From the IMG/VR virus record IMGVR_UViG_3300048672_001143, positions 11,884-75,883 of that record: a DNA stretch of 64,000 nt; one strand, written 5' to 3'. This DNA comes from a virus. Taxonomy: Duplodnaviria > Heunggongvirae > Uroviricota > Caudoviricetes. This document shows, piece after piece, positions 39,730 through 63,994 of the stretch. A program made the translations under genes and the position numbers. Every line of letters begins with the position of its first letter. Positions within the stretch are counted from its first letter, which is position 1. The notes under the pieces are model-generated. The model searched no databases, was not told where the DNA came from, and saw only the letters and a program-made list of their open reading frames with translations.

Positions 39730-39879
39730 ATGAAAACAACTAAAACAAAACAACGACATCCTTGGATGCGACTGTTTACTTTGGAAGGGCCTAAAAGCGA
39801 TGATGCCAGAAAAGCCCGTTTAGAAACTATCCGTGGAATTATGGATTACCGAAATACTTTAAAATTTAGGGGGAGATAG
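39730..39879 (+). CDS. small basic protein
   Basis: Internal ATG (MKTTKTKQR) of track ORF 39673..39879. Confidence 0.25.
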   Translation: MKTTKTKQRHPWMRLFTLEGPKSDDARKARLETIRGIMDYRNTLKFRGR

Positions 39880-40592
39880 TGACACAGCTAGTAACAAAAC
39901 TTTTGGATCACGGCTTCGTCAGGTTAAGTAATTTAGCTGGCCCAATTCGCAGACCAGACGCACCATTCGATGCCGACGATACTGATCCTGCACGTACCGC
40001 CAGGATATCCTTTGACAACCTGGATCTGGAAAGGACTCGGGAACAGGATTTAAAACTTTATGAATACCTTATGGCGCATCTTCACAATACGCCAATTGAG
40101 ATGATCGAGACGTGGTGGGAAATGAAGCTGCCTATATTTTTAGCCCGGCAATTCGTAAGACACAGAACCGCTACGATAAACGAAGTTTCTGGCCGCTATG
40201 CTATTTTACCGGCTGAATGGTATATTCCAGAAGTAATAGGTGGTAAACCTACAAATGGCGCGAAGCAAGGGCAAGAAGATAACCTTTCTGCGGAAGACCA
40301 GGAATGGTTTCGGACTAAACTGGATGTTGCCTGCGCTTCCAATTATGAAGATTACCTCGAATCAGTAAATAGGGGAGTGGCGCCAGAGCACGCCAGGATG
40401 TTCCTGCATGTTAACCACTACACTCACTGGATCTGGAAGCAGGATTTATCTAACCTGATGCATTTTTTGTCGCTTCGCCTTGACGCGCACGCGCAGATAG
40501 AAGCACGGGCTTTTTCAAAAGCCATGTACGACTGGCTAAAGGTATACCTTCCAGTATCTATGCAACTATTTGACGAATACAGGCGGAAATAA
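39879..40592 (+). CDS. thyX: flavin-dependent thymidylate synthase ThyX
   Basis: ThyX signature RHRTATINEVSGRY (RHR-x7-S-x-RY); GTG start preceded by GGGGGAGATA. Confidence 0.8.
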   Translation: MTQLVTKLLDHGFVRLSNLAGPIRRPDAPFDADDTDPARTARISFDNLDLERTREQDLKLYEYLMAHLHNTPIEMIETWWEMKLPIFLARQFVRHRTATINEVSGRYAILPAEWYIPEVIGGKPTNGAKQGQEDNLSAEDQEWFRTKLDVACASNYEDYLESVNRGVAPEHARMFLHVNHYTHWIWKQDLSNLMHFLSLRLDAHAQIEARAFSKAMYDWLKVYLPVSMQLFDEYRRK

Positions 40593-45107: not shown

Positions 45108-45917
45108 ATGCAAGACACGATAGTAATTTATCACGATGACTGTTTAGATGGGTATGGGGCAGCCTATGCGGCTTGGAAAAAATTTGGCGATTCTGCTGAG
45201 TATATTCCAGCGCATTATGGAAATCCTCCGCCAGACGTTACGGGCAAAGACGTGTACATTCTGGATTTCAGCTATCCTAGAGAGATATTGCTAAAGATAC
45301 GTATGCGGGCCAGGAATCTGTTAGTTATTGATCACCATAAGACCGCTCAAGCCGATCTTATAGAGCTGCCTTTTGCTAAGTTTGATATGTCCAAATCTGG
45401 CTGCATCTTAGCATGGGAGCATTTTCACCCGGAGGACAAGGCACCTTTCGGGCTAGAGCTTATCCAAGATAGAGATTTGTGGCAGTTTCACATACCCGAA
45501 ACTAAAGCTTACTGCGAAGGTCTGCGGAATCTAATAATCCGATCCTTTATCGCTTGGGATTTCCATCTGGCTACTGAAAATTGCTTTGAACTGGCTGAAA
45601 GAGGAGAAGATCTGCTAGCTGTGTTCAGTGCTGATATCACTTCACTGGCAAAGCGGGCGCATACTGCAAAATTCGTGGGAACTGAGTTCATGGCTTGTAA
45701 TGCTACTCCGAAATATGCTTCCGAATTGGGCAATTTATTGGCAAAAACTACCGGAAAGCCTGCCGCGATTTACTCCTATAACGGCGCTACTCAGCGTTGG
45801 GATTATTCACTGCGCTCGGTAGGTGACTTCGATGTTTCAGAAATTGCCAAAAACTTCGGTGGCGGAGGGCATAAAAACGCTGCTGGATTTTCAATATCAG
45901 GTACCCTAGACATATGA
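45108..45917 (+). CDS. DHH/DHHA1 phosphoesterase (NrnA/RecJ-core-like)
   Basis: Motif I IVIYHDDCLDGYGAAYAA; motif III LVIDHHKT; DHHA1 motif NFGGGGHKNAAGFSI. Confidence 0.8.
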   Translation: MQDTIVIYHDDCLDGYGAAYAAWKKFGDSAEYIPAHYGNPPPDVTGKDVYILDFSYPREILLKIRMRARNLLVIDHHKTAQADLIELPFAKFDMSKSGCILAWEHFHPEDKAPFGLELIQDRDLWQFHIPETKAYCEGLRNLIIRSFIAWDFHLATENCFELAERGEDLLAVFSADITSLAKRAHTAKFVGTEFMACNATPKYASELGNLLAKTTGKPAAIYSYNGATQRWDYSLRSVGDFDVSEIAKNFGGGGHKNAAGFSISGTLDI

Positions 45918-46369
45918 ACAAAATAGATAAAAAAATAACCGGATATAAAGTCGCTTCCGGCCAAGAAACAGCGCCGGATCCGATTACGCCAACGGGTATG
46001 CATGAAAGCATAGGCCGAGATGAGGTACTGGAAGGCGCTACGTATAAATTAAAAATCCCGTTGTCTGAGCATGCACTTTACATAACGATTAACGATATCG
46101 TTTTGAATGCCGGCACTGATCACGAATCCCGCCACATTTACGAGATATTTTTTAACTCGAAAAATATGGAGCATTTTCAGTGGGCAACGGCGTTAACAAG
46201 AGTGGTGTCCGCAGTTTTCCGCAAGGGTGGGGACGTCAGCTTCCTGGCGGATGAGCTAAAAGCCATTGAGGACCCGAAGGGTGGTTTCTGGCATAAGGGT
46301 AAGTTTATTCCTTCGCTGGTAGCCCTGATTGGGGAAACAATTGAAACACATTTGAAGAAAGGTGCATAA
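45914..46369 (+). CDS. hypothetical protein resembling the C-terminal region of class II ribonucleotide reductase, without the cysteines
   Basis: TYKLKIP ... LYITIN ... EIFFN ... FQWATALTRVVSAVFRKGG recalls the NrdJ C-terminal TYK.K..CG.LYVTIN ... EVF.N ... ALGRLISLALRSG. From memory, unverified. Confidence 0.3.
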   Translation: MNKIDKKITGYKVASGQETAPDPITPTGMHESIGRDEVLEGATYKLKIPLSEHALYITINDIVLNAGTDHESRHIYEIFFNSKNMEHFQWATALTRVVSAVFRKGGDVSFLADELKAIEDPKGGFWHKGKFIPSLVALIGETIETHLKKGA

Positions 46370-50547: not shown

Positions 50548-52302
50548 ATGAAGAATTTTTTTATAACATCGATGCTATTTTCATTGGCATTTTCTGCAAA
50601 TGCAACTACCTACGGGCCGGTTGAAAACTTTGATACAACCAATACTACCGGGCATGACGCTCACGGCTTCGAAATCGAAGCTTGCGACGTACTGCCGTCT
50701 GATATTTCAAGTATTTTTGGTGATGTAAGCCGGTTTGGAACTGATCAGGTTGAGCGTTACGATGCGCCAACCGTTACCGAATACACTGACGCAGTTTGTC
50801 ACGGTACGCGTGTCAGCTACCGGGCAAAATTTGACGGCGTTAACTGGTCTGCAACCACGCCAAGCGGCGAACTACCTTATGCGCCTACGGATTCATGCTG
50901 GAAGTACGGCGATCCTAACTACAACACAACTACATATCCGTGTGATCATTTTGGTGTAAGCTTTAACAAAGCGCCGACTAAGCTTAAATACGCGTGGTTG
51001 ATCGAGTCAACACCGGGTAACTTAATTCAAACTGATGTTTACGTACCAAGCCCTATTTTCGACATTGTAACGCCTGCAGTCGTTGTACCTCCTGCCGCAC
51101 CTGGGGATGCGCCGATAATCATTAATCCGCCGGTTATCAATGTTCAGTTGGAAGCGGCTGAATTGCAGGCCGGTCAAGACTTTGGTACTCCATACTGGGT
51201 TAAAGTTAAAGCAACTTGCTTGAATGATAATGTTGCTGTTGAGCATCTTGTAAAAGACGGCGCAGTAATGGCTAACATGGAAACTGAGACAGAATGGCAG
51301 ATATTCCAGATCGACGCTGGCAATCCGGCCTCTGCGTTTCTTGATATGACGGCTACAAAAATCAGTAATTGTGCTGCCGGTGAAGCTTACACGATTGACG
51401 TATTTGAATATGCTGGCCCAGCCAAAGCGGGCGGAGAAATTGACTTGCAAGGTGCAAGCGATACGCCCGTTCTTGAACCTCCTACTTTAGGCAAATGGTT
51501 AGGCGCAAATAACGTTGGCGTTAACTACGTCGGTGATGTTCCAGTCGCTGCAATTGGCGGCCCTGCCGTTGTTCCTTCACCTACTCCAGCGCCTACTCCG
51601 TTGCCAACACCGGCTCCAGTCGCCTGCTCTGGTACTGATGTTGCAATTACAAGCATATCGGGAGCGTACCGGAATAGTAATATAGCCTTATTTGATGGCA
51701 CGATAATCCAGGCGCCTTACATAGGTACGGTGGACGGACTTGTGGCTATCCCGCAATTCGGACCTAATTATATACTTAACGGCGGGTTTGCAGTCGGTAA
51801 TACCGTAACTTTTACGGGTACTTTCGGCTCTGCAGTAGACGCTAATGGCGTGCCTGTGTTCTGTATCCCAGATACGGGATCTGATTTTACAGTTAATCCG
51901 GTAGCTACTCCAACCCCCGTGCCTACGCCAGTGCCTACGCCAGTGCCTACGCCAGTACCTACGCCAGTGCCTACGCCAGTACCTACGCCAGTACCTACGC
52001 CAGTACCTACGCCAGTACCTACGCCAGTACCTACGCCAGTACCTACACCAGTGCCTACGCCAGTGCCTACGCCAGTGCCTACGCCAGCCCCGGTATCCTG
52101 TGTAATAGCCGGTGCAAAAGTTGAAGGTAAAGGTGCTATTACTGCCGTTTCTGGAAACGTTGTAACGGTAAACGGAAAAACGATCACTGTTTTAGACTGC
52201 GCTGCAGTCGAATGGAATCGTGCAAACCACGCCTTCAAAGTCGGCGATAAGTTTGAATGGAAGGGCTTCGCAAATTCAGCAGTAAAAGTAACGCTTAACT
52301 AA
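50548..52302 (+). CDS. secreted protein with Pro/Thr linkers and a (PTPV)n tandem repeat
   Basis: Signal peptide [19 protein letters not shown]; [13 protein letters not shown] linker and about 20 PTPV repeats. Confidence 0.55.
51915..52088 (+). repeat. ~14 copies of a 12-nt tandem repeat CCTACGCCAGT(G/A) encoding (PTPV)n, approximate bounds
   Basis: Read directly; in-frame within CDS 50548..52302. Confidence 0.8.
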
Positions 52303-52588: not shown

Positions 52589-54439
52589 ATGAAGAAAACC
52601 TTATTCCTAACCGCAGTAGCGCTTTTTACTGCCTTCCCCAATGCCTATGCCGTACAATGCTACGGAAATTCTAATTATCCAGGATGCCAATACGTCCCAG
52701 AAACTATTCCTACACCAGCCCCCGGTTCTCCTCCTATCCTACAAAGGGCTGTAATACCACTTCCGCCAGTTGTACCTAAGCCGCTACAGAACAAAATTTT
52801 ACGCCCGGATATAAGCGCCTTTAATAACGCTACTGTGGCTACTAACAATTTGCTTCCTAACGGCATACTATTCAAAGTTACGGCGGCGGATTGTAACAAT
52901 TCTATGGTGAACGAGGATATCGCCTCTATTAAGGCAACGCTAATAGCAGGACGTGAAATAGGTAGTTTTACCGATACAACAGTGGCTACCGTAAACAAAA
53001 CTGGCCTATTAGACAGGGTAAGTATTACTGCCGGTGCCGGAAGTTGGCAAGAAATCGTCCGAACGTACAATAATAGAATACTTACTGGAACCCCTATTCC
53101 ACCGGCTGTTACCGCAGCGTATGTAAATTTTTTGGCCGCAGTAAAGACTCTCGTAAATTCTACGTCGTGTTTAGAATATATGGGTCCTACTTCATACCAG
53201 ACAGAGACTTTATCCTCGCAGGGATTAGTAGACGTCGGCGCACTAACTAAGAATTTACGACTTGCTTCGTTTAGTTCAATCGTCAACTCTTTACGGGCCG
53301 ATCCCAATTATAAAGCCTTTGTTTCTACTGTGGCCACAATCGACGGCAAAAGAACGTATGCCAATACTTCAGCTGCTTATGTCGGGCGTTTACGCAAGGA
53401 ATTCAGCTTGATAAATGCGGAACCCGCAGTGGTTACAGGAACATCTTTTTTACATATGGATCTTTTAACGTCCATTTCCGGCATACTAGCGGATAGAAAT
53501 TGGCAGGTGCATTACGCCGTTCCTGGAGCTGCTGGTGACCATTTATACGGCGTAGCCGCAGGTATTTTTGACGCCGTTAATTGGCTCTATAAGGACGCCA
53601 TAGCTAGAAAGGTTCCGCAGAATAGCGTTATCGCCATACCAAGCGCTATGGATTATGTAGAGAGTAGAGCAGACGCGAACGTCGATGAATATGCAGCTTC
53701 AAGGGATATTGTTATTGTCCGATCTAGCAGTAATGTCAATCAAAAGAACGACGAGGCTTCTGTTAACAGTGCACAATCTATATCCGTCGGCTCATCGGTA
53801 AAAGGTATAGTTAGGGGAACAGTAGGACAAAATGGCCCCGACGTAGTAGTCCCATTGGATAGCGATTTACCCGCTTCAGCTAATGGGGGAAAAGTCCCTA
53901 AGATTTTCAATGGTGCTGCAGGAACTTTAATTTATACCGCTCCAGAAAACGTATCTAATAGCTATTCTACCGTGGTAGTAGCGCAATTACTTGGTACTAT
54001 ACGCGAAGTATGTCCGACAGCTTCTGCACAAGAGATAATTAATACTGCATGCGCCGCGGCTACAAAATTACCGCCCCTTGTTGGAAATACTGTTTCAACA
54101 AGGAATAATTTCGTCAAATGCGGTACTTTTAATCCCACATCTACCTTGCTGCAAGTAGTGCTTAAGAATTGCTCTGATAACATTACTAAAAAATGGACTC
54201 CATTAGTGATTGGCTTACGCTGGAATAACACATCGGTATCAAATGCTGTATTCGAAGCTATTAGCGCGGTCTGTGTAAACGCTGGGGGTTATGTGAAGAC
54301 CGAAGCCGGGAATATCGGTTCTTGTGTAAAACTGGTTGACCAATCTGTAAATATCCCAATAACTATCTACCAAACGCAAGCATTAGGATACTACGGGTAT
54401 TCGGCGTACCCAACTGGAAAATTCGCCAGATTCTTTTAA
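52589..54439 (+). CDS. secreted protein (616 aa)
   Basis: Signal peptide MKKTLFLTAVALFTAFPNAYA; leader TTTCTGGAGAAATAAA-ATG shared with neighbours. Confidence 0.5.
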   Translation: MKKTLFLTAVALFTAFPNAYAVQCYGNSNYPGCQYVPETIPTPAPGSPPILQRAVIPLPPVVPKPLQNKILRPDISAFNNATVATNNLLPNGILFKVTAADCNNSMVNEDIASIKATLIAGREIGSFTDTTVATVNKTGLLDRVSITAGAGSWQEIVRTYNNRILTGTPIPPAVTAAYVNFLAAVKTLVNSTSCLEYMGPTSYQTETLSSQGLVDVGALTKNLRLASFSSIVNSLRADPNYKAFVSTVATIDGKRTYANTSAAYVGRLRKEFSLINAEPAVVTGTSFLHMDLLTSISGILADRNWQVHYAVPGAAGDHLYGVAAGIFDAVNWLYKDAIARKVPQNSVIAIPSAMDYVESRADANVDEYAASRDIVIVRSSSNVNQKNDEASVNSAQSISVGSSVKGIVRGTVGQNGPDVVVPLDSDLPASANGGKVPKIFNGAAGTLIYTAPENVSNSYSTVVVAQLLGTIREVCPTASAQEIINTACAAATKLPPLVGNTVSTRNNFVKCGTFNPTSTLLQVVLKNCSDNITKKWTPLVIGLRWNNTSVSNAVFEAISAVCVNAGGYVKTEAGNIGSCVKLVDQSVNIPITIYQTQALGYYGYSAYPTGKFARFF

Positions 54440-54482: not shown

Positions 54483-54698
54483 ATGCCCAACTCAAACAAC
54501 GACGCTTTTTTCGAAGAGCTACGCGAAAGAAACCGGTTTAAAAACGATACCTACTCAAACGAAGACCTGCAAAAGTTAATCGATGGTATGTATGAGCGCT
54601 ACGCTTCTCTTGGGGCTAACCAAGACAAGCACGCGTTGTTTAGAAAGATTTTAGAATTAATCGATGTGCAGATAGCGAGAGCAAAATCCGCTACCTAA
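54483..54698 (+). CDS. hypothetical protein
   Basis: ORF track; same CTGGAGAAATAAAA-ATG leader; stop overlaps the convergent giant ORF's stop. Confidence 0.35.
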   Translation: MPNSNNDAFFEELRERNRFKNDTYSNEDLQKLIDGMYERYASLGANQDKHALFRKILELIDVQIARAKSAT

Positions 54699-57600
54699 TC
54701 CCCATTTTCTTCCCGCAATCTGTTTTGTTCATAGAGGTACGCCAGTCTTGGATTTACGGCGTACCCTCTAATTCCTCTGGCCTGCTCGTTCTTAGCTGTT
54801 CTTACTGCCGATTTATGAATGCTTTCGTAAGTAATTGGCCACGATGGGTGATCTTTCTGCCACTTGCTCAACTCTTCCTGTGGAATCGGTTCGCCTTTTG
54901 TTACCGCTTTCTGGATCTTATTTACCAGTTTAGCGCGAGCATCGGATATCGCAGCTTCTGCGGCTTTATTATACCCGCGTTCAGCGTACAGCACTTCCAT
55001 ATTGGAACTACCCAACCCGATAGCCTGGAACAGTACTTCCATTGCAGAAGCGTCTTTCAATTGCTCCCCGTTCATACTTTCGTACCCAGACTGAGCTAAG
55101 CGGATAGCTTTCATTCCGTCGCCAATCGCTTTGGGCGTAGCGCTTTCTACCCCACGCCATATTTCCCCATCGCCTAGCATTTTTGCGCCATCAGCGATCT
55201 TCTTAACCATGCCACCGAATGGTCCTGCGACTTGTGAGAGATACTCAGTCGCAGCATCTTTCCCTTCCAGGTCTTTCAAAGGCTCTTGGAAGAAGATATT
55301 GCTCAAATTCATACGGGAGGCTAAGTTGACCGGGGTCAACGCATTGCCCAACCCTTTAATAACCGCCGTAGCGAAGGTTTCACCCCCGAGGGAAGTCAAT
55401 CCTACACGAACTTCCTTTTCTACGTCCCACGGCTCATCATCGTCGGATACGGCGTTGCCAAGAGCGTTTAGCACCATGGTTATCGCGCCCATCAAAGGCA
55501 TTCCAAATAAACCGGCAGCCGCACCCTGCATAACAAACAGCGCTGATAGCGATCTAGCTGCTTCTTTCGCTTCTGCTTTTCTGGCGTCGGCCAAAGCTAT
55601 TTCTTCCGGGGTATTTCTCGGCATTTTTTTCCAATACCCAAGCGTATCGACTGCGGTACGACCCCACAAATAAAGCATGGCCTGTGGATATTTTTTATAC
55701 TGCATAACCACGCCAGCTACAGGCCCGCGGAATATGCGAGCCGCGTTTTCAGTCGAGTAATCGCCGTGCGCATCATTGTTTAGCTTACGGGCATACTCCA
55801 AGGCTTCGTAGTGATTTTCTGGATCCCCGTTCAACGCTAAATCATAAGCCGCCAAGAGGGTAATTTCTCGGTTCATCCGCTCACCGTGGTGAAACATCCA
55901 ACCCATCTTTTTGTTGAATTCTTGCAGGCGACCGCCGTAATCTTCCCCTTCACGGCCGATGCCCAAAACATCGAAGAAGTTGGTCCTGGAAACATCACCC
56001 TCTTCTTTAAAATCGCGTAAAGCAGCTAAGCGCCTGGAGATGCGGAGCATTTCTCTAGGATCGCCGTTGTGCGCCCGGAGATAAGCTAATTTTTCTTCCA
56101 TTACCACTGAGATAGATACGTTCCCGTCTTCATCCCGGTAAATGTAATTTCCATTGGCGTCTTTCTTGTTGAAGTTGATAACCGCTTTAAGGAATTCATT
56201 TCTGGTATTTCCAAAAGCTTTTCGGGTTGCATTAACCCCGTATTTACCTACCGCAATGGGCATAGCCACAACGGGTGTTTGAAATAAGTTGACTAAACCA
56301 CTTGATAAACCGAAACCCATAGTCATAACGAAGTCGAATTGGCGAATAGCCGCAGCCACCTGATCCATGCCTGTACTAGAAGTGTTCACCATCGCATTGT
56401 AGGTCTTATTCAACTCTTCGATGGTGTATGCGGCTTTGTGGCTGTTCTCAGTGTTTATGTGGCTAGCAGCTTCTAAAGCTTCCTTATTGCGTACCGCTAC
56501 TCTTTCCAAAGATTCTTCCGGGGAACCTACGGATACCGTATTTTCCCACAACGTTTGCACTTTTCTAAAGCGTTTTACCTGCTCTGGAATTCCAGTAGCT
56601 ATAATATCTGCTATGGCTGCTTCCACTCGCTGTGGGTCTTGGTATTGAGCCCAAAAGCTGGCTATTTTTTCAGCGGTTTTAAGCGCGTCGGAAGCTTCTG
56701 CGCGTTCCCGTGCAGTAGTCGCTTCCGATAGGTTTTTCTGCGCTATGAATAAAGCTTTTGGAACTTTGTTAGCGATATCTAGATGGCTGAATTTATTGCG
56801 TAGCTTAATCGCTTCATCGTACAGATTCTGTTCTTCCGCCGGCGCGTTATCCCTGAGCTCCTCTAAGGCACCTTCTTGTTTCAACTCGTCCCAATTCGCC
56901 CCCAACATTTCAGCCGCTTGCATTTCAGTACGCTTTGCTTCACGAGCAGAAGTTTTAGTCGCTATGTCCAGTGCCAGCTTAGCATCTCGGAGAGATTCGC
57001 CCATGTTACGACCTTCCACCATATTGGCTAATTGGGAAGCTCCGTGGTGGATAGTGTTGGCAAAAGCCCGCATAGCATCTTCATCGAAGCCTTTTGTGCC
57101 TTTGCGGTGCATAGCGTTGTGCCGGACCGAAATATCTGGCAACGTTGCCAAATACATTTGGTGGATCTCATCTTGCAACTCTTTAGAAACCTCGATTGGG
57201 ATATCCGCCGCATCGATTTTCTCGTGAATATTTTTCAAGAAGTTGTCCGATACAGCATCCCCAATCTGCGCGTTTTGCATTTCGCTTAATGAAGTTCCCT
57301 GATCTCTTACCGTTCCACCTTCAGCTTCGAAGTTCTTTACCGCCCGTTTTCTAGCGGCTAAAGACTCATAAGTCATGAACCAGTTTTCGCCTTGGGCATC
57401 TTTTCCGTAAAACCAATGATCCCCGTAACGCTTCAACGGTGCGTAGTACCAGGATAGTGACTGGGATTCAAATTTTATCCGGAGTTGCGCGATCAATCCT
57501 GCCGCAGTTTGAGCATCGATCATCGACTCTTCGATCCGGTGTTCGAGTGCTTCCAGGCGGGCGTTGAATATCTCCTGGTGGAGTTCGTATGTGCCTGAAT

Positions 57601-60600
57601 AAATTTTAGCGGCTTCTGGATTGGTAGATACTAAGGTATCGTAAGCCGGTTTCAAGTTAGCATAAGACTGCCGGCGTAAAATGTTAGAATCTTTCCAGCC
57701 GTTTTTAGCGCGTTTTTCAGTTTGTTTTTGGTCAATCTCGTGCAGTTTGGTCAAGAACTGCTGGGCCTCTTCTTGCGTAGCGAAAGTCGCTGAATTCTTA
57801 TCTGATAAGATAGCACCGGCCTGATCAGCGGCTTCTGACAGCGCAGTTCGGCTTTCCCCGTTGAATTCTGTCATCGAGTACGCTTTAAATTGCCCGCGCA
57901 GTGTTCTCTCTACACCAAGCCAATCTTTGGAGACGTTAATGTCCCGAAGCGTCGACTGTTGCATTATACGACCAGTTTCTTTACGAGCTGGAATCGGTAA
58001 ACCCTTCCACTTGATCGTGGTAATCTGATTCGCTTTATGTAAGTACGGGTCCACCATCGCACGGCGACGCTGCATACCTTCTTCGTAAGTTTTTAGCCCC
58101 GGCAGATAGGATTTAGCGGACTCGATAATCTGGCGAACGGACAAGAACGCTAATTTTTCTTTAGAAAGCGTTTCGAGGAGATTGTCTTTTTTATCCTGTA
58201 ACTCACTTGCGGCTACTCTTAACCCTTCCGGCAGATATTCGGCTACTGCTTCACGCGTGCTGCGGGACGGCCTGCTGAACATCGGCATGCCTTCTGAAAG
58301 AATTTTCTCTTTCATTTCTGGCGTGATGATCAAAGCGGGTTGGTCCTTCAATCGCCCGCCGGCTTTCATTCGTTTTTGGTCTTCTGGGGTTAGGGATTTC
58401 CCTTGCAATGAATCTCGGTAAGGAATACCAATAACAACAGGAACCGATTCAATTTTCCCGCCCCTTTTACGCGCGATTTCCATAGCCGCTTGGGTAATCA
58501 GCGCTGGTTTTCCCTGCGCATTTAAACCGTTTCCGTCGCCGTACATGGCTTGCGTCCAAGCCCCGCCTATTTTAAGATCAAGGCCCGATAATTCTCTAGC
58601 TACGGGAGAAACTTCATCTTCCGGCTCAAAACCTACAGACCCCTGTGATTTAGTGCCTTCCATTCCGATTATCTTGCCCGCTAGGTCTTTCCCAACGTAC
58701 TCTTCAAGTTGCTCCGGGGACTGATCAAATCGGGTATCTACACTATCACCACCCATATCGAAAATGTTTATATCGAATTTTCCGTTGCGCTTTACGTACC
58801 TAATCTTACTAACTTGAGCGCTAAGATCATACCGATCTGCTTGTTGATCACCCGTTGTCCAGGCCACAGAATTGCTATCGCTGTCTATCGCTTGGCTGAT
58901 CGCTTTTTTCATCAGTAAAGAAATATAAGCGTTTGTTGCTTTAGTATTGGAATCGGTAACGAATGGCGCCGCTGGTATTCCTAGTTCTGGCATCCTTTCT
59001 AATTTTCGTATTTCATCTAGAATATCTTGCCTTTTAGACTGAAGACTGACGAATTCTTCGTCAAATTCCTCATCCATACCCGCCTTTAAAGCTAATTCAT
59101 GCATTCGCCCACGTAACTTCACATTTTGATCTTTTAATTCCAGAAGATGCCGTTCTTCGGCATCCGTTAAGGGCCTGTTAAATCCCAGTTTTCTGCCCGC
59201 TTGACTACGTTGGCTTTGTACTTCTTCCAAGAATAAAACTTTATTGCCGTTCGCGTCGATTCGGGTATTGTGTCGAATCCAGCCAATTTGCTTACCTTCT
59301 CCTGTATCACCAAAATGCGTGTGATCGTTCCGGTTGTAAGGCTCCGTAGTTGGTATGGTAACTACAAGTTCGCGGTAATCTACTCCGCCGGGAAGTGTTA
59401 ACTGTGCGTTATCGTGTTTAGGTTGTTGCTTCCGCTGCTGTTCTAAAATATTAACTGTATCCGATAAGTTCTGGTATCTGTCTTTTTCGCTTCTAGATAA
59501 ATCATCAAACTTTATTCTGCCGTATTTAGAATGCTGCTCTGCTCTAAAGTGGTTCATTTCTTCTAACGTAGAACGCAATTTATTTTCGAGCTGCGTATCG
59601 GTACCTAACACCTTATCCTCAACTTTCACGCCGTTAGCGTCCAGAAAATCGCTAACCTGTGCCCGAGACACTTTTCCGGAAAGAGAATCCAACCAATCCG
59701 TAATCCCTGACCAATAAATTTCGTCTTTCTTAACGTCAAATTTAGGCGCGTTGGCCACTAACCAGACTTTCACTTGCTGCGCGTTGCCAAAAACTTTCTC
59801 CGGTGCTTTTTCAACCGCTTTGCTTAGAGCCGAATAAAATCTTGGCGCAGGTTCAGAAGGTCGGCTAAACATTGGCGCTTCAATATCTGATTCGCTAAAC
59901 GGACTCGATTGCACATTCCTTCCGGTCCGTAATTGCGCCTCTGTTTCTGTGCGTTTTCCAGACCATACTGGAACCCCACCCCAGCGATTAGTGTTCGGCG
60001 CTGGGATGATAGAAACGACAGAGTAAACCTGCCCGCCGTTCTGCCTATCCGCTTGCTTACTGACAACCAAAGCCTGCTGCAGCCTAGAAGACCGAAATAT
60101 TAAATGTCCTTTGTCTCGGAATATCTGATCAAAGCCTTTGGCAATCGAACTGACGTGCCGGGCGTAATTTTCAGCGACTTCACTGGTATATCCCGGCACT
60201 GTTCTGCGATCTTTTTCACGAATCGCGTTATCGTGGATGTGCGTAATACCAAAACCTCTATGCTCGGCTGTGGCCACGCCTACCCGTAATTTGATCGGTA
60301 GTTGCTCTACCCCTTTAGAAACCGCTTCACGAGGCGTCATCGCAATAACGCCGTTCATATTACCTTCAAACTGCGGAGTTTCTGGCACAATGAAATCTTC
60401 TACCGATTTCCGAATCCCGTGTAACCGGCGAGATTGTTGCGCTTCTGAATTAAATACCCTTAGCGAAGTAGAATCTCGGTTAGCCGCGGAAGCTAGACTA
60501 GCGCGAAGTAAATCGTGGATATCTTTTTCGCCCATTTTACCGGTGATAAACCCCCGGCCAATACCGTGGGTTACCAAAAAGGATTTGATTTGAGAAATAA

Positions 60601-63600
60601 GGCGTTTAAACCAGCCAGCGTTGGGCGCGTACTCTCCCATCTTGGCGATAACTTCGGCAACGAAAGGTTCCCCGCCGACTTCTAAATGGTCGTAACTTTG
60701 CGCGACTTCGTTCCATATACGTTGCGCGTAGGACCCATCAATCTTGGCCAGATTAGTGATCTGTTTTTGCAGTGAGGAATACCCGTCAGTTCCGAGTATT
60801 CTGCGGAGGTTATAATGCTCCCCAATTTCGTGGAGTACGACTGCTGCCAATCGGTGCGCCGGAGTAGCCGCTAAGTCGATGTGCGCTTTACCCTTAAAAT
60901 AGATAGCCTCATCGTCCGATTGTAAGCTTTCCCCACCCGGCCAATCTTCTTTGCCCTGCGTAAAATTCAAAGTACCGTTGGCAACCAAGGTGTTTATGCC
61001 CGGTCCAAATTTATTTACGAGGTGCGCAATAGCCTCTTCCTGAGTAGCGAATCTCGATTTAAGGTACTCATGGACTTCAGGCTGCTGTAATAACGCTTCG
61101 GTTATCCCTGCTGGTTTTGCCTCAGTAGCCCCTTCGCTAGGAGTTGCTGCACCAGCTCGGCCTCTTTTTCCGCCTGTTGGGCTTTTAACTCTTTTAGCCT
61201 TTTTCGATGGTCCCCCATTATCCGTGCTGGGTGATCCGCTAGATGCGATATCCCCAGTCGTTCCAGTCTGGTTTCGTCTGACATACTCTTCTCCACGTTT
61301 ACCCGCATCTAATTCACGGCTAGATAATTCAAAAATCGATGATAAATCCGTTCCCGGAATAATCGGGCTTTGCCCAAGATAAAGGCCAACCCCATTAGGT
61401 TTTTCAGCCCCAGGCTTAGATTTCGGATGTGGAATGTGGCTTAAGCTAACGGTATTTATGTATTTAGATACCCGCTGTTTAGCGTTTTCCATCGCTTGCT
61501 TAATGGTCGCGTCAGTTCCACCTGTAACAACGGCGCTTAGTTCATCCCCGCCGTGACGGATTAAAACAGCATGCCCTGCTTTACGCATAGAATCCGCAAA
61601 AATATCGCTTATGTTTCGAAATGTGACATTCGCCAAGTGTGCGTTATTTCCAAATTCGGTATTCAATCCGCCTAGGTTTGCGATATCCGCCTCTATGAAA
61701 TGCGCGGGCTCGCCAGTTTCTGCGACATGCTCCATCGCAGCCTTGACAGTTGGCTCCTTATCATGTGGCATGTGAAAACCGGTAACCGCATCCATACTCT
61801 CATCAGGAACTATCTTCTCAATGGTAGCCTCGTCCTTTAATCCGGCCTCTCTGGCCAACTGCCGGCGTTCGGCTATCCGTCGTTCGCTAGGCGATAGAAA
61901 ATCTACCCGCCGCCGATCTTGTGATACTCGTTGCCCTACACTAGCTAAAGCGGCTTCGATATCGCTTGGGTGTTGCGCTTTTACTTTCTGAACGATATCC
62001 TGATTTGCTCTTGGTTTTATGCCTAGACTCTTCGCCACGCGAAGGATCGCTTCATTCGGGAGCGTGTCTATTTTAGCATCGAGTACCGCGTGTTTATCTT
62101 CTAAGCTTACTTCTTGCCCTTTTTCTGGTGATTCTTCTTGCGGGGCTGTGTTCTGGCTTTGGTCATTTAGTTGCTCTGTGGGTTGTGAAATGGGTGCTTC
62201 GGATGTTGCCGGTTCTGTATTCCCGATCCCTTGTCCGCTCGGTTGAAATCCTCCGCCACTGACTGCGGTATCCCCACCTTCTTGGCGAATTTCGGATTGT
62301 GCGCTGCTGCCGCCATCAGGCGTGCTTGGGCTGGACTCTTGGATGGCATTTTGGCTCTCCTGCGACTGGGATCTGCGCTGTATCTCTTCTAAAATAATCT
62401 GTTTTTGGATAGGGGACGTGCCATTTAATACATAATTTTTCAATAGGCTTTTCTTATCCATTCCGCGTATAGCCGTTTGATAAGCCGCATTGTCCGCATC
62501 GATAACCGATTGTTTTACATTTTCTACAGCTTCTATTTGCGGCTGCGCCACTTGATTATCTAAGGCAACAGAAGCCGCGCGATTAAAAATACCATCCGGG
62601 GCCGTTGCCAAATGCTCCTTTAAAGGCTCCGTTACGGCGCTTACTGCTTCAGAAGTTCTTTCTTCCGGTGTTGGTATTTTGTTAGCCGCAATGTGTGCTT
62701 CCATTGCGTCAAGGACTGATTGTGCGGAATCTCCGCGATTGGCCTGGATCCCTAGCTTAGAAGCGGCGTCCGCCAAACGTTTAGTAACTTGCTGCGTTCG
62801 TCCTGCAGGCGTATACGCTTTCTTATAAGCGTCAACGAAATCTTGACTCTCCCGTAGGATAGTCTGATCATCCGTATTTTCAGGTTCTTCTGCTTGCTCG
62901 GCTTCTACTACTTGTTCAGATGGCGTATTTTCTACAGTACCCGCTGGCAAGTAATCCGCTAATAAACTATCTACCTCTGGGGTACTGGGCTCTCCCGCAG
63001 TATTTTCAGGCTCCGCCAGTAACCCTTGTTGTTGATCAATTACCGCTTGTTCTTCAGGAGAAATATTACTCGGCTGCTCCGTCGCGTGCGTTAGCGCACC
63101 CGTAGGAGCGCCCATACCAAAACCGGCTACTGCTCCTAAAGCTGCGGCATTTCCTACACCTTCACCGATATCTTTTCCTAAAGCTAAATTAGAAGCCGCC
63201 TGCTCTTGCCCGGATTGCGCTGTTTCTTGTCCAGCTTCCACCAAGCCACTTTCAAGCCCACGTCTTACCGCATTTTTAGCGGTTGGCTCAATAGCATTCT
63301 GCCCGCCTATAAGCGCAGTGTTAACATCCCCAACGCCTAATTTATTGGCTAATCTTCCCGCACCACCGGTAATCGCACCAGTTAATGCGCCGCTACCGGC
63401 TAAGACCGCTGTTTGCTCCGGAGTTAATAATCCGTTTTCAGTCTGTTGGCGAACCTGCTCGACGTTTTGACCCGCAGTTACACCACCTTCTCCAATGGCG
63501 CCTGCCGCCGAGGGAGATAATTTAGGAGCTACACTCATAGCACCTTTAGCGAGGCCCGCCCCTCCCAGCATAGAAGGCGCAGATTCTAGGATAGTGTGTG

Positions 63601-63994
63601 CAGCAACGGAGGGATTCTCTGCGACGGCTTTTAGAGTGGGTACAAAGCCTTCCGCTTCTTGTACATTTTGAAAAGCTTTTTTCTGCGCCGGAGAATATTC
63701 TTCGGATAAAATATCTTTGGCGCGTTTGAAATCGACGCCGTTTTCTTGAAGGGTTTTACCTATCCGGCCACCTGTTGGTATGTCGGCTAATCCGACTGCA
63801 GTTTCCGGAACCGCGATAATACCTTTTAAAGCGGTGATCCCCGCATCTTTCGCCCTATCGCTGAGGGTTGTTTCGGGTTCTGGCTCCGGAGTCTTCGGCA
63901 TGTAATCTGCCAGTAGTGAGTCTACGTCCGGAGTCTGAGATTTAGGCAGGTAATCTGCCAGCAATGAATCTACGCCTGGTGCGGTAGCCGCCAT
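54695..63994 (-). CDS. giant multidomain (polyvalent) protein of at least 3099 aa with GGDEF-like palm domain and HExxH zincin motif; N-terminus may lie beyond the window
   Basis: Single uninterrupted frame. RHGGDEL preceded by EADIANLGGLNTEFGN (aa ~766-820). VVLHEIGEHYNL (aa ~1052-1063). N-terminal VDSLLADYLP x3; PMFSRPS x2. Antisense track ORFs inside it are artefacts. Confidence 0.7.
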   Translation of the reverse strand: MAATAPGVDSLLADYLPKSQTPDVDSLLADYMPKTPEPEPETTLSDRAKDAGITALKGIIAVPETAVGLADIPTGGRIGKTLQENGVDFKRAKDILSEEYSPAQKKAFQNVQEAEGFVPTLKAVAENPSVAAHTILESAPSMLGGAGLAKGAMSVAPKLSPSAAGAIGEGGVTAGQNVEQVRQQTENGLLTPEQTAVLAGSGALTGAITGGAGRLANKLGVGDVNTALIGGQNAIEPTAKNAVRRGLESGLVEAGQETAQSGQEQAASNLALGKDIGEGVGNAAALGAVAGFGMGAPTGALTHATEQPSNISPEEQAVIDQQQGLLAEPENTAGEPSTPEVDSLLADYLPAGTVENTPSEQVVEAEQAEEPENTDDQTILRESQDFVDAYKKAYTPAGRTQQVTKRLADAASKLGIQANRGDSAQSVLDAMEAHIAANKIPTPEERTSEAVSAVTEPLKEHLATAPDGIFNRAASVALDNQVAQPQIEAVENVKQSVIDADNAAYQTAIRGMDKKSLLKNYVLNGTSPIQKQIILEEIQRRSQSQESQNAIQESSPSTPDGGSSAQSEIRQEGGDTAVSGGGFQPSGQGIGNTEPATSEAPISQPTEQLNDQSQNTAPQEESPEKGQEVSLEDKHAVLDAKIDTLPNEAILRVAKSLGIKPRANQDIVQKVKAQHPSDIEAALASVGQRVSQDRRRVDFLSPSERRIAERRQLAREAGLKDEATIEKIVPDESMDAVTGFHMPHDKEPTVKAAMEHVAETGEPAHFIEADIANLGGLNTEFGNNAHLANVTFRNISDIFADSMRKAGHAVLIRHGGDELSAVVTGGTDATIKQAMENAKQRVSKYINTVSLSHIPHPKSKPGAEKPNGVGLYLGQSPIIPGTDLSSIFELSSRELDAGKRGEEYVRRNQTGTTGDIASSGSPSTDNGGPSKKAKRVKSPTGGKRGRAGAATPSEGATEAKPAGITEALLQQPEVHEYLKSRFATQEEAIAHLVNKFGPGINTLVANGTLNFTQGKEDWPGGESLQSDDEAIYFKGKAHIDLAATPAHRLAAVVLHEIGEHYNLRRILGTDGYSSLQKQITNLAKIDGSYAQRIWNEVAQSYDHLEVGGEPFVAEVIAKMGEYAPNAGWFKRLISQIKSFLVTHGIGRGFITGKMGEKDIHDLLRASLASAANRDSTSLRVFNSEAQQSRRLHGIRKSVEDFIVPETPQFEGNMNGVIAMTPREAVSKGVEQLPIKLRVGVATAEHRGFGITHIHDNAIREKDRRTVPGYTSEVAENYARHVSSIAKGFDQIFRDKGHLIFRSSRLQQALVVSKQADRQNGGQVYSVVSIIPAPNTNRWGGVPVWSGKRTETEAQLRTGRNVQSSPFSESDIEAPMFSRPSEPAPRFYSALSKAVEKAPEKVFGNAQQVKVWLVANAPKFDVKKDEIYWSGITDWLDSLSGKVSRAQVSDFLDANGVKVEDKVLGTDTQLENKLRSTLEEMNHFRAEQHSKYGRIKFDDLSRSEKDRYQNLSDTVNILEQQRKQQPKHDNAQLTLPGGVDYRELVVTIPTTEPYNRNDHTHFGDTGEGKQIGWIRHNTRIDANGNKVLFLEEVQSQRSQAGRKLGFNRPLTDAEERHLLELKDQNVKLRGRMHELALKAGMDEEFDEEFVSLQSKRQDILDEIRKLERMPELGIPAAPFVTDSNTKATNAYISLLMKKAISQAIDSDSNSVAWTTGDQQADRYDLSAQVSKIRYVKRNGKFDINIFDMGGDSVDTRFDQSPEQLEEYVGKDLAGKIIGMEGTKSQGSVGFEPEDEVSPVARELSGLDLKIGGAWTQAMYGDGNGLNAQGKPALITQAAMEIARKRGGKIESVPVVIGIPYRDSLQGKSLTPEDQKRMKAGGRLKDQPALIITPEMKEKILSEGMPMFSRPSRSTREAVAEYLPEGLRVAASELQDKKDNLLETLSKEKLAFLSVRQIIESAKSYLPGLKTYEEGMQRRRAMVDPYLHKANQITTIKWKGLPIPARKETGRIMQQSTLRDINVSKDWLGVERTLRGQFKAYSMTEFNGESRTALSEAADQAGAILSDKNSATFATQEEAQQFLTKLHEIDQKQTEKRAKNGWKDSNILRRQSYANLKPAYDTLVSTNPEAAKIYSGTYELHQEIFNARLEALEHRIEESMIDAQTAAGLIAQLRIKFESQSLSWYYAPLKRYGDHWFYGKDAQGENWFMTYESLAARKRAVKNFEAEGGTVRDQGTSLSEMQNAQIGDAVSDNFLKNIHEKIDAADIPIEVSKELQDEIHQMYLATLPDISVRHNAMHRKGTKGFDEDAMRAFANTIHHGASQLANMVEGRNMGESLRDAKLALDIATKTSAREAKRTEMQAAEMLGANWDELKQEGALEELRDNAPAEEQNLYDEAIKLRNKFSHLDIANKVPKALFIAQKNLSEATTARERAEASDALKTAEKIASFWAQYQDPQRVEAAIADIIATGIPEQVKRFRKVQTLWENTVSVGSPEESLERVAVRNKEALEAASHINTENSHKAAYTIEELNKTYNAMVNTSSTGMDQVAAAIRQFDFVMTMGFGLSSGLVNLFQTPVVAMPIAVGKYGVNATRKAFGNTRNEFLKAVINFNKKDANGNYIYRDEDGNVSISVVMEEKLAYLRAHNGDPREMLRISRRLAALRDFKEEGDVSRTNFFDVLGIGREGEDYGGRLQEFNKKMGWMFHHGERMNREITLLAAYDLALNGDPENHYEALEYARKLNNDAHGDYSTENAARIFRGPVAGVVMQYKKYPQAMLYLWGRTAVDTLGYWKKMPRNTPEEIALADARKAEAKEAARSLSALFVMQGAAAGLFGMPLMGAITMVLNALGNAVSDDDEPWDVEKEVRVGLTSLGGETFATAVIKGLGNALTPVNLASRMNLSNIFFQEPLKDLEGKDAATEYLSQVAGPFGGMVKKIADGAKMLGDGEIWRGVESATPKAIGDGMKAIRLAQSGYESMNGEQLKDASAMEVLFQAIGLGSSNMEVLYAERGYNKAAEAAISDARAKLVNKIQKAVTKGEPIPQEELSKWQKDHPSWPITYESIHKSAVRTAKNEQARGIRGYAVNPRLAYLYEQNRLREENGD

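What the first reader, a model, noticed from the sequence alone, without database searches (positions are those of the whole stretch)
61440..61700. GGDEF-like (diguanylate-cyclase-type palm) domain inside the giant protein
Residues ~766-850 read HFIEADIANLGGLNTEFGNNAHLANVTFRNISDIFADSMRKAGHAVLIRHGGDELSAVV. This aligns motif by motif with GGDEF domains: DIDxFKxINDTxGH ... RYGGEEFvvhh. Both the metal-binding Asp (EAD) and the GG(D/E)E(L/F) active-site acids are retained. A GGDEF-like cyclase in an injectable phage protein would imply delivery of a nucleotide-second-messenger synthase or mimic into the host. I do not know of this being described for phage ejection proteins.
Basis: seen in the sequence. 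Interest (0 to 1): 0.85.

Follow-up and report, generated by a model that had tools for sequence, protein, structure and literature searches.

The report
GGDEF cyclase module in giant phage protein
A 3,099-residue phage protein really does contain an intact GGDEF-type nucleotide cyclase domain, but such domains in giant "polyvalent" phage and plasmid proteins were already predicted in 2017, so this is a new member of a known, still untested kind.

Summary

The domain belongs to a divergent clade of about 600 clusters at 50% identity. Members sit almost only inside giant multidomain proteins of phages and bacterial genomes. The metal-binding Asp, GGDE and a Lys (PleD K442) are near-invariant, so catalysis is likely.

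The clade differs from canonical cyclases in five ways:
- The guanine-reading Asp is mostly Asn.
- The motif is always GGDE, never GGEE.
- The phosphate loop reads NLGG.
- There is no RxxD feedback site.
- 37% of members carry two tandem copies, usually one intact and one catalytically dead.

The product may therefore not be c-di-GMP.

The novelty claim fails. Iyer et al. 2017 described GGDEF domains in polyvalent proteins and predicted their injection, and IMG already labels the closest relative "GGDEF domain-containing protein". Delivery into the host is inferred from homology and gene context. No activity has been shown.

The parts
54695..63994 (-). Giant ORF of 3,099 aa, a polyvalent-type phage protein.
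   Evidence: ORF list and translation. The only recognisable domains are GGDEF, LPD39 and PLxRFG. The IMG/VR relative L007 has a syntenic 3,004-aa orthologue, with overall dN/dS about 0.08.
61280..61903 (-). Complete GGDEF-type module, aa 698-905. It comprises an N-terminal helical extension plus the palm domain.
   Evidence: The family HMM envelope is 697-920. The AF2 model has pLDDT 81.5, and secondary structure follows the GGDEF topology. All 208 codons align without gaps to L007 at 77% aa identity, dN 0.16 with dS saturated. The flanking linkers are only 52% and 45% identical.
61796..61903 (-). N-terminal helical extension, aa 698-733 (consensus P-x-E...F...A...G-L...P).
   Evidence: It is moderately conserved in the family: P702 84/134, A714 82/134, G718 90/134. 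The model predicts helices at model residues 3-17 and 23-29, which is aa 702-716 and 722-728. The best Foldseek hits include stalk/coiled-coil plus GGDEF constructs aligned over about 200 columns. A dimerising stalk role is inference.
61433..61795 (-). Stretch matched by Pfam PF00990 GGDEF, aa 734-854, profile positions 3-119 of 161.
61685..61687 (-). D770 codon, the metal-binding Asp, equivalent to PleD D327.
   Evidence: D in 133/134 family domains. It aligns to the first Asp of DosC 'DvD'.
61661..61678 (-). N773-L-G-G-L-N778. This clade-specific loop replaces the canonical FFKxIN. N778 is equivalent to PleD N335.
   Evidence: N773 134/134, L774 128, G776 131, N778 129 of 134. A phosphate-loop role is inferred from the position in GGDEF structures.
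61628..61630 (-). N789 codon, at the position of the guanine-specifying Asp (PleD D344, GacA S348).
   Evidence: It aligns to the 'gD' Asp of DosC in both the single-sequence and the profile alignment. In the family it is N 96 and D 35 of 134.
61538..61558 (-). R813-H-G-G-D-E-L819, the A-site (GGDEF) motif.
   Evidence: R 127, G 134, G 133, D 133, E 134 of 134. The fifth position varies between L, F, I and V. No RxxD lies upstream; the sequence is RKAGHAVLIRHGGDE.
61421..61435 (-). I854-P-H-P-K858, a clade-specific conserved loop after helix alpha3.
   Evidence: H856 120/134 and K858 127/134. These are retained even in catalytically degenerate tandem copies. Function unknown.
61298..61300 (-). 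K899 codon, equivalent to PleD K442 (phosphate and transition-state Lys).
   Evidence: K in 131/134. It lies in the last helix of the model.
61100..61279 (-). Gly/Ser/Lys-rich disordered linker after the module, aa 906-965.
   Evidence: pLDDT is below 50 from model residue 209. It is 45% identical to L007 with dN/dS about 0.7. Many relatives share a tail motif NVxRxxxxTxGxxxPxGQ directly after the domain.
62075..62377 (-). Ser/Gln/Glu/Gly-rich low-complexity linker before the module, aa about 540-640.
   Evidence: Sequence.
57503..58207 (-). LPD39 (large polyvalent protein associated domain 39), aa 1930-2164.
   Evidence: PF18858 at E 6.9e-7 in the whole protein and 3.2e-9 on the segment. The orthologue P0003 has it too.
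54743..56467 (-). C-terminal PLxRFG / 'tail-700' module, aa 2510-3084, with one hydrophobic stretch at aa 2816-2846.
   Evidence: NF032893 at E 3.9e-126. phrog_10089 'DarB-like antirestriction' at E 2e-65. tblastn finds giant proteins in 31 phage records.

Best explanation
Residues about 698-905 of the giant phage protein are a catalytically competent GGDEF-superfamily nucleotidyltransferase module.

The module belongs to a divergent clade found almost only inside giant multidomain ('polyvalent') proteins of phages and bacterial genomes. One standalone copy lies among plasmid-type entry and addiction genes.

Proposed mechanism, by analogy with GGDEF enzymes:
- Two palm domains pair. In this single-copy protein that means two polypeptides.
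- Each domain holds one purine NTP through N778, N789 and the NLGG loop.
- D770 and D817 hold Mg2+ on the triphosphate.
- E818 acts across the dimer as the general base on the partner's 3'-OH.
- The result is a dinucleotide, cyclic if both half-sites fire.
- There is no sensor domain and no RxxD feedback site, so output would be unregulated.

The protein carries the C-terminal module of virion-associated DarB-like giant proteins. In its relative L007 the gene follows virion-protein genes. The enzyme is therefore most likely packaged and released into the cell with the DNA. There it would flood or distort host purine-dinucleotide signalling at the start of infection.

The product is not settled. 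c-di-GMP is the default, but the Asn at the guanine-reading position and the strict GGDE motif leave A-containing or linear products open.

Shown: domain identity, fold, conservation of catalytic residues, clade distribution. Inferred: activity, dimerisation, product, packaging and injection, biological effect.

For: **Likely catalysis.**
- Among 134 domains with a median 35% identity to the window, D770 is kept in 133, GGDE in 133-134, R813 in 127 and K899 in 131.
- 92 of 94 single-copy members keep D770 plus GGDE.
- Against the orthologue in L007 the module has 77% aa identity, no gaps, dN 0.16 and saturated dS. Its flanking linkers drift.

**Clade distribution.**
- An exhaustive profile search of 1.84 billion representatives finds only 597 hits at E<=1e-3. 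The canonical GGDEF proteins, which should be far more numerous, are not among them.
- The best 150 have a median length of 1,274 aa and reach 7,849 aa.
- Only aa about 650-1000 of the giant protein is shared with them.

**Dimer logic.** 56 of the 150 carry two tandem copies.

**Packaging and injection.**
- The C-terminus is the PLxRFG/DarB-like module.
- JC1 gp69, described in that paper as a DarB-like protein, was detected in purified virions (PMC9144972).
- The same-strand genes upstream of the orthologues in L007 and L008 hit virion-structural and baseplate PHROGs.
- Iyer et al. 2017 made the same functional prediction.

**Catalytic roles.** The roles of the third-position D/E and the fourth-position E are taken from PMC6456294.
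Against: - No activity, product or virion proteomics exists for this protein or for any member of its clade.
- The TIGR00254 GGDEF model scores 20.5 bits, below its cut-off of 37.4.
- The orthologue P0003 and the tandem proteins P0004 and P0009 do not reach PF00990 at E<=0.001 when scanned whole.
- Canonical features are missing: the guanine-specific Asp (Asn here), the FK of DxDxFK, the NRR cross-dimer Arg, and a clearly conserved equivalent of PleD R446.
- The window protein has one copy and no recognisable dimerisation domain.
- The gene's upstream context lies outside the window, so its placement in a late or structural operon is known only from L007.
Confidence: 0.6

Rival explanations
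1. It is an ordinary diguanylate cyclase. A homodimer makes c-di-GMP from two GTP. The effect is the classical one of high c-di-GMP: motility off, matrix and surface polysaccharide on, which would for example change receptors or exclude superinfecting phages.
For: All top sequence and structure matches are diguanylate cyclases. The metal Asp, N778 (PleD N335), GGDE and K899 are kept. 35 of 134 clade members have the canonical Asp at the specificity position. Iyer et al. name c-di-GMP as the expected type of product.
Against: - The window has Asn789, as do 72% of the clade, where canonical enzymes have the guanine-pairing Asp.
- The motif is GGDE in 133/134. Canonical Asp-type enzymes split 57% D to 43% E, and a strict GGDE is the signature of the non-canonical Ser/Thr (Hypr) enzymes (PMC6456294).
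- The cross-dimer Arg that favours guanine is absent.
- 41 of 56 tandem proteins have one dead half-site, which cannot make both bonds by the canonical symmetric mechanism.
Confidence: 0.3
2. It is a non-canonical nucleotidyltransferase of the GGDEF fold. One intact site suffices. It makes an A-containing or mixed cyclic dinucleotide or a linear pppNpN, or adds an NMP to another 3'-OH acceptor held by the partner or degenerate domain. The product jams or spoofs host nucleotide-based immunity.
For: - The specificity position is Asn, which can pair with either purine face (inference).
- The GGDE motif is invariant, the NLGG loop is altered, and the H856 and K858 residues are clade-specific.
- Among tandem proteins, 41 of 56 are intact plus degenerate. 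The degenerate copies keep N773, N778, H856 and K858 but lose D770, D817 and E818.
- In GGDEF enzymes one monomer supplies both the metal for its own NTP and the general base for the partner's 3'-OH (PMC6456294). An intact/dead pair can therefore form exactly one bond (inference).
- The module is fused with NUDIX in P0004 and P0009.
- A standalone homologue sits among ArdC, HipA, zeta-toxin and AbiEii genes.
Against: - This rests on sequence inference only.
- The window's own domain is single-copy and fully intact, so it could still act as a symmetric cyclase.
- Degenerate copies might be purely regulatory or structural.
- There is no PADLOC or defence-related hit for the module.
Confidence: 0.3
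3. It is a non-catalytic GGDEF domain. It would act as a nucleotide-binding receptor, an NTPase like the GdpP/YybT GGDEF domain, or a structural spacer in an internal virion protein.
For: Degenerate GGDEF domains with binding or scaffolding roles are common; LapD, FimX and PelD are among the structural hits. [quoted passage not shown] Half of the tandem copies in the clade are degenerate.
Against: The window copy keeps every catalytic residue. 92 of 94 single-copy relatives do so at 25-45% identity. There is no RxxD I-site that would make it a c-di-GMP receptor.
Confidence: 0.08
4. It is a chance resemblance or a generic palm domain (adenylyl cyclase, Cas10/mCpol or polymerase-like) rather than GGDEF.
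For: The Pfam score is only about 3-6 bits above the cut-off, and the TIGRFAM model is below its cut-off.
Confidence: 0.02

Closest known systems
GGDEF domains of polyvalent proteins (Iyer, Burroughs, Anand, de Souza, Aravind 2017, J Bacteriol; example Acetonema longum WP_004096050.1)
   Same: A GGDEF domain embedded in a giant multidomain protein of a phage or mobile element. It sits with LPD-type domains and is predicted to be delivered with the invading DNA and to act on nucleotide signalling. The window protein carries LPD39 and a DarB-like C-terminal module.
   Different: I could not retrieve the Acetonema protein, so I did not test whether it belongs to the same GGDEF clade. The window protein lacks the SNF2, methylase, zincin and ART domains listed for that example. 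The clade features found here are not in the passages of that paper that I read: Asn at the specificity site, the NLGG loop, and tandem live/dead pairs.
Canonical diguanylate cyclases (PleD, WspR, DosC, DgcZ; PF00990)
   Different: There is no sensor or receiver domain and no RxxD I-site. Asn replaces the guanine-pairing Asp. NLGG replaces FK. There is no NRR, and extra conserved H856 and K858 residues are present. The domain sits inside a 3,099-aa virion-type protein.
Hypr GGDEF enzymes (GacA, Bd0367), which make 3',3'-cGAMP
   Same: A non-Asp residue sits at the Watson-Crick specificity position, combined with a strict GGDE rather than GGEE motif and loss of the cross-dimer Arg. This is the combination PMC6456294 links to relaxed purine choice.
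   Different: The residue here is Asn, not Ser or Thr. No biochemical data exist for Asn variants in what I read. Overall the sequence is no closer to GacA (6d9m, profile E 1.6e-5) than to ordinary cyclases.
DarB-like / PLxRFG giant virion proteins of podophages (Bcep22 gp75, JC1 gp69, PEp14, LASTA, Itty13)
   Same: The C-terminal module of about 575 aa is homologous (NF032893 E 3.9e-126; phrog_10089 E 2e-65; tblastn 23-27% identity over more than 90% of the query). JC1 gp69 is in purified virions.
   Different: A tblastn of the window's GGDEF module against 50,697 phage records found nothing, so the deposited relatives do not carry a close copy of this module. Their N-terminal cargo is annotated as methylase, helicase or transglycosylase.
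Small standalone phage GGDEF proteins (Bacillus phage G Gp350, SP-15, Bordetella phage CN1)
   Same: They are phage-encoded proteins with a GGDEF fold. Foldseek against BFVD gives E 4e-10 to 1e-5.
   Different: They are 146-460 aa single proteins, not modules of a virion-type giant protein. Sequence identity is 11-16%.

Membership tests
GGDEF domain superfamily (PF00990) | Profile match above the curated threshold | tested here: met
   PF00990 scores 26.6 bits in the whole protein and 30.2 bits for the excised domain, against a gathering score of 23.8. 31 of 38 diverse clade members also match. The stricter TIGR00254 model is not met: 20.5 bits against 37.4.
GGDEF domain superfamily (PF00990) | GGDEF palm fold | tested here: met
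Active diguanylate cyclase | GG(D/E)EF A-site with both acidic residues | tested here: met
   The window has RHGGDEL. GGDE is kept in 133-134 of 134 relatives. The fifth position is L instead of F and varies in the clade.
Active diguanylate cyclase | Metal-binding Asp at the end of strand beta1 (PleD D327) | tested here: met
   D770 is kept in 133/134 and aligns to the DosC Asp.
Active diguanylate cyclase | Guanine recognition pair Asn (PleD N335) plus Asp (PleD D344) | tested here: not met
   N778 is present. The Asp position is Asn789 in the window, and N 96 / D 35 of 134 in the clade.
Active diguanylate cyclase | Phosphate-binding Lys and Arg in the last helix (PleD K442, R446) | tested here: inconclusive
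   K899 is kept in 131/134. No single Arg column is conserved. A 'NVxR' Arg follows at variable spacing.
Active diguanylate cyclase | Homodimerisation and synthesis of c-di-GMP from 2 GTP | not testable with these tools
   This needs biochemistry. The only indirect hints are the tandem copies in 56 of 150 relatives and an N-terminal helix aligned to stalk helices.
Feedback-inhibited diguanylate cyclase | RxxD I-site five residues upstream of GGDEF | tested here: not met
   The upstream sequence is RKAGHAVLIRHGGDE, with no RxxD. This feature is optional for the family.
Polyvalent proteins (Iyer et al. 2017) | Several unrelated domains in one very large polypeptide of a phage or conjugative element, including LPD-type domains | tested here: met
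   The 3,099-aa protein has GGDEF, LPD39 (PF18858) and PLxRFG modules separated by low-complexity linkers. The window is a phage, with terminase, an SU10-type portal, primase and PolA.
Polyvalent proteins (Iyer et al. 2017) | Gene lies among late or virion genes | tested here: inconclusive
   The upstream side lies beyond the window end. In the syntenic L007 and in L008, the same-strand upstream genes hit virion-structural and baseplate PHROGs.
Polyvalent proteins (Iyer et al. 2017) | Packaged in the virion and injected with the DNA | not testable with these tools
   The only support is by homology of the C-terminal module to DarB-like proteins. JC1 gp69 is in virions by mass spectrometry.
Minimal CRISPR polymerase (mCpol) / Cas10 palm | Closest fold and sequence relatives are Cas10 or mCpol palms | tested here: not met

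The most novel reading that the evidence does not exclude
This polyvalent-protein clade may not be a diguanylate cyclase at all. It may be an asymmetric, single-active-site GGDEF-fold nucleotidyltransferase, with the second domain or partner only presenting an acceptor. Phages and other mobile elements would deliver it at entry to make a non-c-di-GMP product: an A-containing cyclic dinucleotide or a linear pppNpN. That product would act as a decoy or jammer of host nucleotide-based immunity, for example by keeping a Panoptes-type guard silent or by pre-empting CBASS or type III CRISPR signalling.
Probability: 0.2. Interest if true: 0.8.

Novelty: new member of a known kind. Interest (0 to 1): 0.4.

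Why it matters
Virion-delivered enzymes act before any phage gene is expressed, so they show what a phage must neutralise first. A GGDEF-type synthase delivered this way was predicted in 2017 but, in the literature I could search, has never been tested.

This protein and its clade of about 600 clusters give concrete constructs and mutants for that test:
- the excised module (aa about 690-920);
- the catalytic residues D770, D817 and E818;
- the specificity residue N789;
- natural tandem pairs with one intact and one dead copy.

If the product is c-di-GMP, phages can directly rewrite the host's lifestyle switch at injection. If it is something else, this would be a new route of interference with cyclic-nucleotide immunity. 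The live/dead tandem pairs would also give the GGDEF fold an asymmetric catalytic mode like that of heterodimeric class III cyclases.

Tried and rejected
**Searches that found nothing or little**
- Megablast of window 60500-62500 against 50,697 phage records: no match.
- tblastn of the module against phages and against 72,556 plasmids: no match. No deposited phage or plasmid carries a close copy.
- The word-indexed protein search found only 2 relatives with the single sequence and 5 with the profile. The exhaustive profile search was needed to find the family.
- A genome contigs pattern scan found no confirmed relative.
- The search for related loci with the 38-sequence alignment failed because no stretch was conserved enough. 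The first tblastn attempt used the wrong frame.
- A literature search for PLxRFG and for Hypr GGDEF Asn variants gave nothing usable.

**Domain scans**
- PADLOC: no hit for the module, and only sub-threshold noise for the whole protein.
- Segment-wise Pfam scans and a PDB search of the whole giant protein showed no domains beyond GGDEF, LPD39 and PLxRFG.

**Ideas considered and dropped**
- A zincin processing protease next to the module. The motif is HEIGEH, which is HExxxH rather than HExxH, and has no profile support.
- An mCpol, Cas10 or adenylyl-cyclase identity.
- A second, degenerate copy in the window protein. hmmsearch with all filters off finds one copy only.
- The bacterial microcompartment shell protein hits (E 7.5e-4 to 0.4). 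They are short matches over aa about 800-868 with no support from profile or fold searches.
Full report
**1. What is at the coordinates**

The interval 61440-61700 lies inside a single 3,099-codon ORF on the minus strand (54695-63994). The quoted peptide is present at aa 765-823. I checked three codons by hand against the plus-strand read:
- D770 at 61685-61687
- N789 at 61628-61630
- RHGGDEL at 61538-61558

The plus strand has no ORF of 80 aa or more overlapping the interval.

The window is phage DNA. It encodes:
- small and large terminase
- an SU10-type portal, a RepB/PriCT primase, DUF2800, family A DNA polymerase and an SNF2 helicase
- ThyX

The portal is only about 32% identical to those of Vibrio phages. 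The giant gene has no nucleotide match among 50,697 deposited phages.

**2. Is it a GGDEF domain?**

Yes. Sequence evidence:
- Pfam PF00990 matches aa 734-854, with E 5.7e-6 and 26.6 bits in the whole protein. For the excised domain it gives E 4.4e-7 and 30.2 bits. The gathering score is 23.8.
- The best PDB sequence match is the GGDEF domain of E. coli DosC, E 8.4e-5.
- A profile of 38 diverse relatives finds 31 PDB sequences, every one a GGDEF protein, best E 3.5e-9.

Structure evidence:
- An AlphaFold2 model of aa 700-920 has mean pLDDT 81.5.
- The Foldseek top 50 PDB hits are all GGDEF domains, E down to 1e-10.

The stricter TIGR00254 model is below its cut-off, 20.5 bits against 37.4. So this is a divergent member, not a typical one.

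**3. The family it belongs to**

An exhaustive profile search of 1.84 billion representatives returned only 597 proteins at E<=1e-3, 400 at E<=1e-10 and 152 at E<=1e-30. The ordinary GGDEF proteins, which should be far more numerous, are not retrieved. The module therefore defines a separate clade.

Features of the best 150:
- The median length is 1,274 aa; 54 are 2,000 aa or longer, and the longest is 7,849 aa.
- Only aa about 650-1000 of the window protein is shared with most of them. The rest is shared with 8 or fewer. The module is therefore shuffled among otherwise different giant proteins.
- Named carriers include proteins labelled NUDIX domain-containing (Sinorhizobium fredii, Trinickia), SAM-dependent methyltransferase (Inquilinus) and Fic family protein (Nocardia).
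- The closest relative, P0003 (3,004 aa, IMG), is already named 'GGDEF domain-containing protein'.

Other contexts:
- A standalone 327-aa homologue lies among genes for ArdC-N/MPTase-PolyVal, HipA, zeta toxin and AbiEii.
- A 237-aa homologue lies between an InPase/DarA_N protein and another large ORF.
- IMG/VR holds a syntenic relative of the window phage, L007, a 93.5-kb contig with 67-77% nucleotide identity along the giant gene. It also holds two contigs with a 4,169-aa carrier.

**4. Residue-level anatomy**

Counts come from an alignment of 134 domains with a median 35% identity to the window.

| Position | Count of 134 | Equivalent or comment |
|---|---|---|
| D735 / T738 / G739 | 128 / 131 / 123 | canonical DxLTG start |
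| D770 | 133 | PleD D327, metal binding |
| N773 | 134 | clade-specific |
| L774 | 128 | clade-specific |
| G776 | 131 | clade-specific |
| N778 | 129 | PleD N335 |
| R813 | 127 | |
| G815 G816 D817 E818 | 134, 133, 133, 134 | A-site motif |
| H856 / K858 | 120 / 127 | clade-specific |
| G868 | 134 | |
| K899 | 131 | PleD K442 |

Differences from canonical cyclases:
- The position aligned to the guanine-pairing Asp (PleD D344, the 'GD' of DosC) is Asn789 in the window. In the clade it is N 96 and D 35.
- The third motif residue is always Asp. Canonical Asp-type enzymes are 57% D and 43% E. Strict GGDE is the hallmark of the Ser/Thr 'Hypr' enzymes (PMC6456294).
- The FK of DxDxFK is replaced by NLGG.
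- The NRR after TGL, which contains the cross-dimer Arg that favours guanine according to PMC6456294, is absent. The window has DAVTGFHMPHDK.
- There is no RxxD I-site upstream of GGDE.

Against the L007 orthologue the module aligns without gaps: 208 codons, 77% aa identity, dN 0.16 with saturated dS. The flanking low-complexity linkers are 52% and 45% identical.

**5. Tandem copies**

Fifty-six of the 150 best relatives carry two copies 50-90 residues apart.
- 41 have exactly one copy with D770 plus GGDE intact and one degenerate copy. In 27 the N-terminal copy is dead, and in 14 the C-terminal copy is dead.
- 14 have both copies intact, and one has neither.
- Degenerate copies keep N773, N778, H856 and K858 but lose D770, D817 and E818.
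- Single-copy proteins, like the window's, are intact in 92 of 94 cases.
- The window protein has one copy only, confirmed by hmmsearch with filters off.

In GGDEF enzymes each monomer supplies the metal site for its own NTP. According to PMC6456294, the fourth-position Glu acts as general base on the 3'-OH of the NTP held by the partner. An intact/dead pair could therefore form one phosphodiester bond but not two by the symmetric route. This is my inference. It suggests that the clade works as a pair of palms, and that for many members a single catalytic centre is enough.

**6. The rest of the protein, and delivery**

Besides GGDEF, the only recognisable parts are:
- LPD39, a 'large polyvalent protein associated domain', at aa 1930-2164.
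- The C-terminal PLxRFG/'tail-700' module at aa 2510-3084. NF032893 scores E 3.9e-126 and phrog_10089 'DarB-like antirestriction' scores E 2e-65.

That C-terminal module is found in giant proteins in 31 deposited phage records, including PEp14, LASTA, SopranoGao, Parlo and Itty13. A giant protein annotated as DarB-like, JC1 gp69 (4,515 aa), was detected in CsCl-purified virions with 51 unique peptides (PMC9144972).

The window ends six bases upstream of the start codon, so the upstream context is not visible here. In L007 and L008 the preceding same-strand genes match virion-structural and baseplate PHROGs. Packaging and injection are thus plausible by homology and context, but they are not shown.

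**7. Comparison with what is known**

Iyer et al. 2017 (PMC5512222) defined polyvalent proteins. They list GGDEF among the catalytic domains, with the Acetonema longum protein WP_004096050.1 as an example. They propose that such cyclases either interfere with host responses that use similar nucleotides or activate responses against rival elements.

Small standalone GGDEF proteins are also known in phages.

I found no paper reporting an activity for a polyvalent-protein GGDEF. The finding is therefore a new member of a known, computationally described kind.

The clade-specific features are refinements I did not see in the passages I read: Asn at the specificity site, strict GGDE, the NLGG loop, no I-site, and live/dead tandem pairs. 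I could not test whether the Acetonema domain belongs to this clade.

**8. Verdict**

| Claim | Probability |
|---|---|
| The domain is real and of the GGDEF fold | about 0.97 |
| It is catalytically active | about 0.7 |
| The product is c-di-GMP | about 0.3 |
| The product is something other than c-di-GMP | about 0.3 |
| The protein is virion-delivered | about 0.55 |

Interest is moderate at 0.4. The class was predicted nine years ago, so the finding is not surprising, but it offers a well-defined, testable enzyme. The family data hint at non-canonical chemistry.

Noticed in passing
window 63941-63973, 63893-63925 and 62942-62974 (minus strand; aa 8-18, 24-34, 341-351 of the giant ORF): The peptide VDSLLADY[LM]P occurs three times in the N-terminal third of the giant protein. 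The N-terminal 340 aa are among the most conserved parts against the L007 orthologue: 81% identity, dN/dS 0.075. It may be a docking or packaging signal. Unexplained.
   Followed up: partly
window 45108-45917 (+), with 45914-46369 (+) and 39879-40592 (+): A 269-aa DHH/DHHA1 phosphoesterase (phrog_4771 E 4.4e-75; PF02272 E 3.3e-10) sits next to a TSCPD-domain ORF and near ThyX. DHH/DHHA1 enzymes include c-di-AMP and pApA/pGpG phosphodiesterases. The same phage therefore carries a putative dinucleotide synthase and a possible dinucleotide hydrolase.
   Followed up: no
relatives P0016, P0019, P0033, P0036 and others (family of the module; not in the window): In 41 of 56 proteins with two tandem GGDEF-type copies, exactly one copy has lost the metal Asp and the GGDE acids. 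That copy keeps N773, N778, H856 and K858. The pattern resembles the pseudo-heterodimeric class III cyclases.
   Followed up: yes
window 61220-61279 (minus; aa 906-925) and the equivalent tails of relatives: A loosely conserved tail motif, NVxRxxxxTxGxxxPxGQ, follows the last helix of the module in many relatives. It is predicted to be disordered. It could be a processing site or a flexible arm. Not analysed statistically.
   Followed up: partly
window 52589-54439 (+): A 616-aa ORF with no Pfam or PHROG match lies between the end of the giant gene and the 584-aa ORF at 50548-52302. In the syntenic contig L007 the homologue of the 584-aa ORF directly follows the giant gene. This may be a variable, receptor-binding-type insertion.
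   Followed up: no
window about 60700-60730 (minus; aa about 1090 of the giant ORF): The motif LHEIGEHYNL looks like a zincin site but is HExxxH, not HExxH. It has no profile support.
   Followed up: yes
window 31614-32468 (+), 12166-12990 (+), 16725-17444 (+): The early/middle region encodes an SPFH/Band 7 protein, a DUF932 protein and a GP88-family protein.
   Followed up: no
L002 1687-7130: The standalone 327-aa homologue of the module (P0002) lies 3-8 kb downstream of genes for ArdC-N+MPTase-PolyVal, an HTH protein, HipA, zeta toxin and AbiEii. This looks like a plasmid or ICE entry and addiction region.
   Followed up: no
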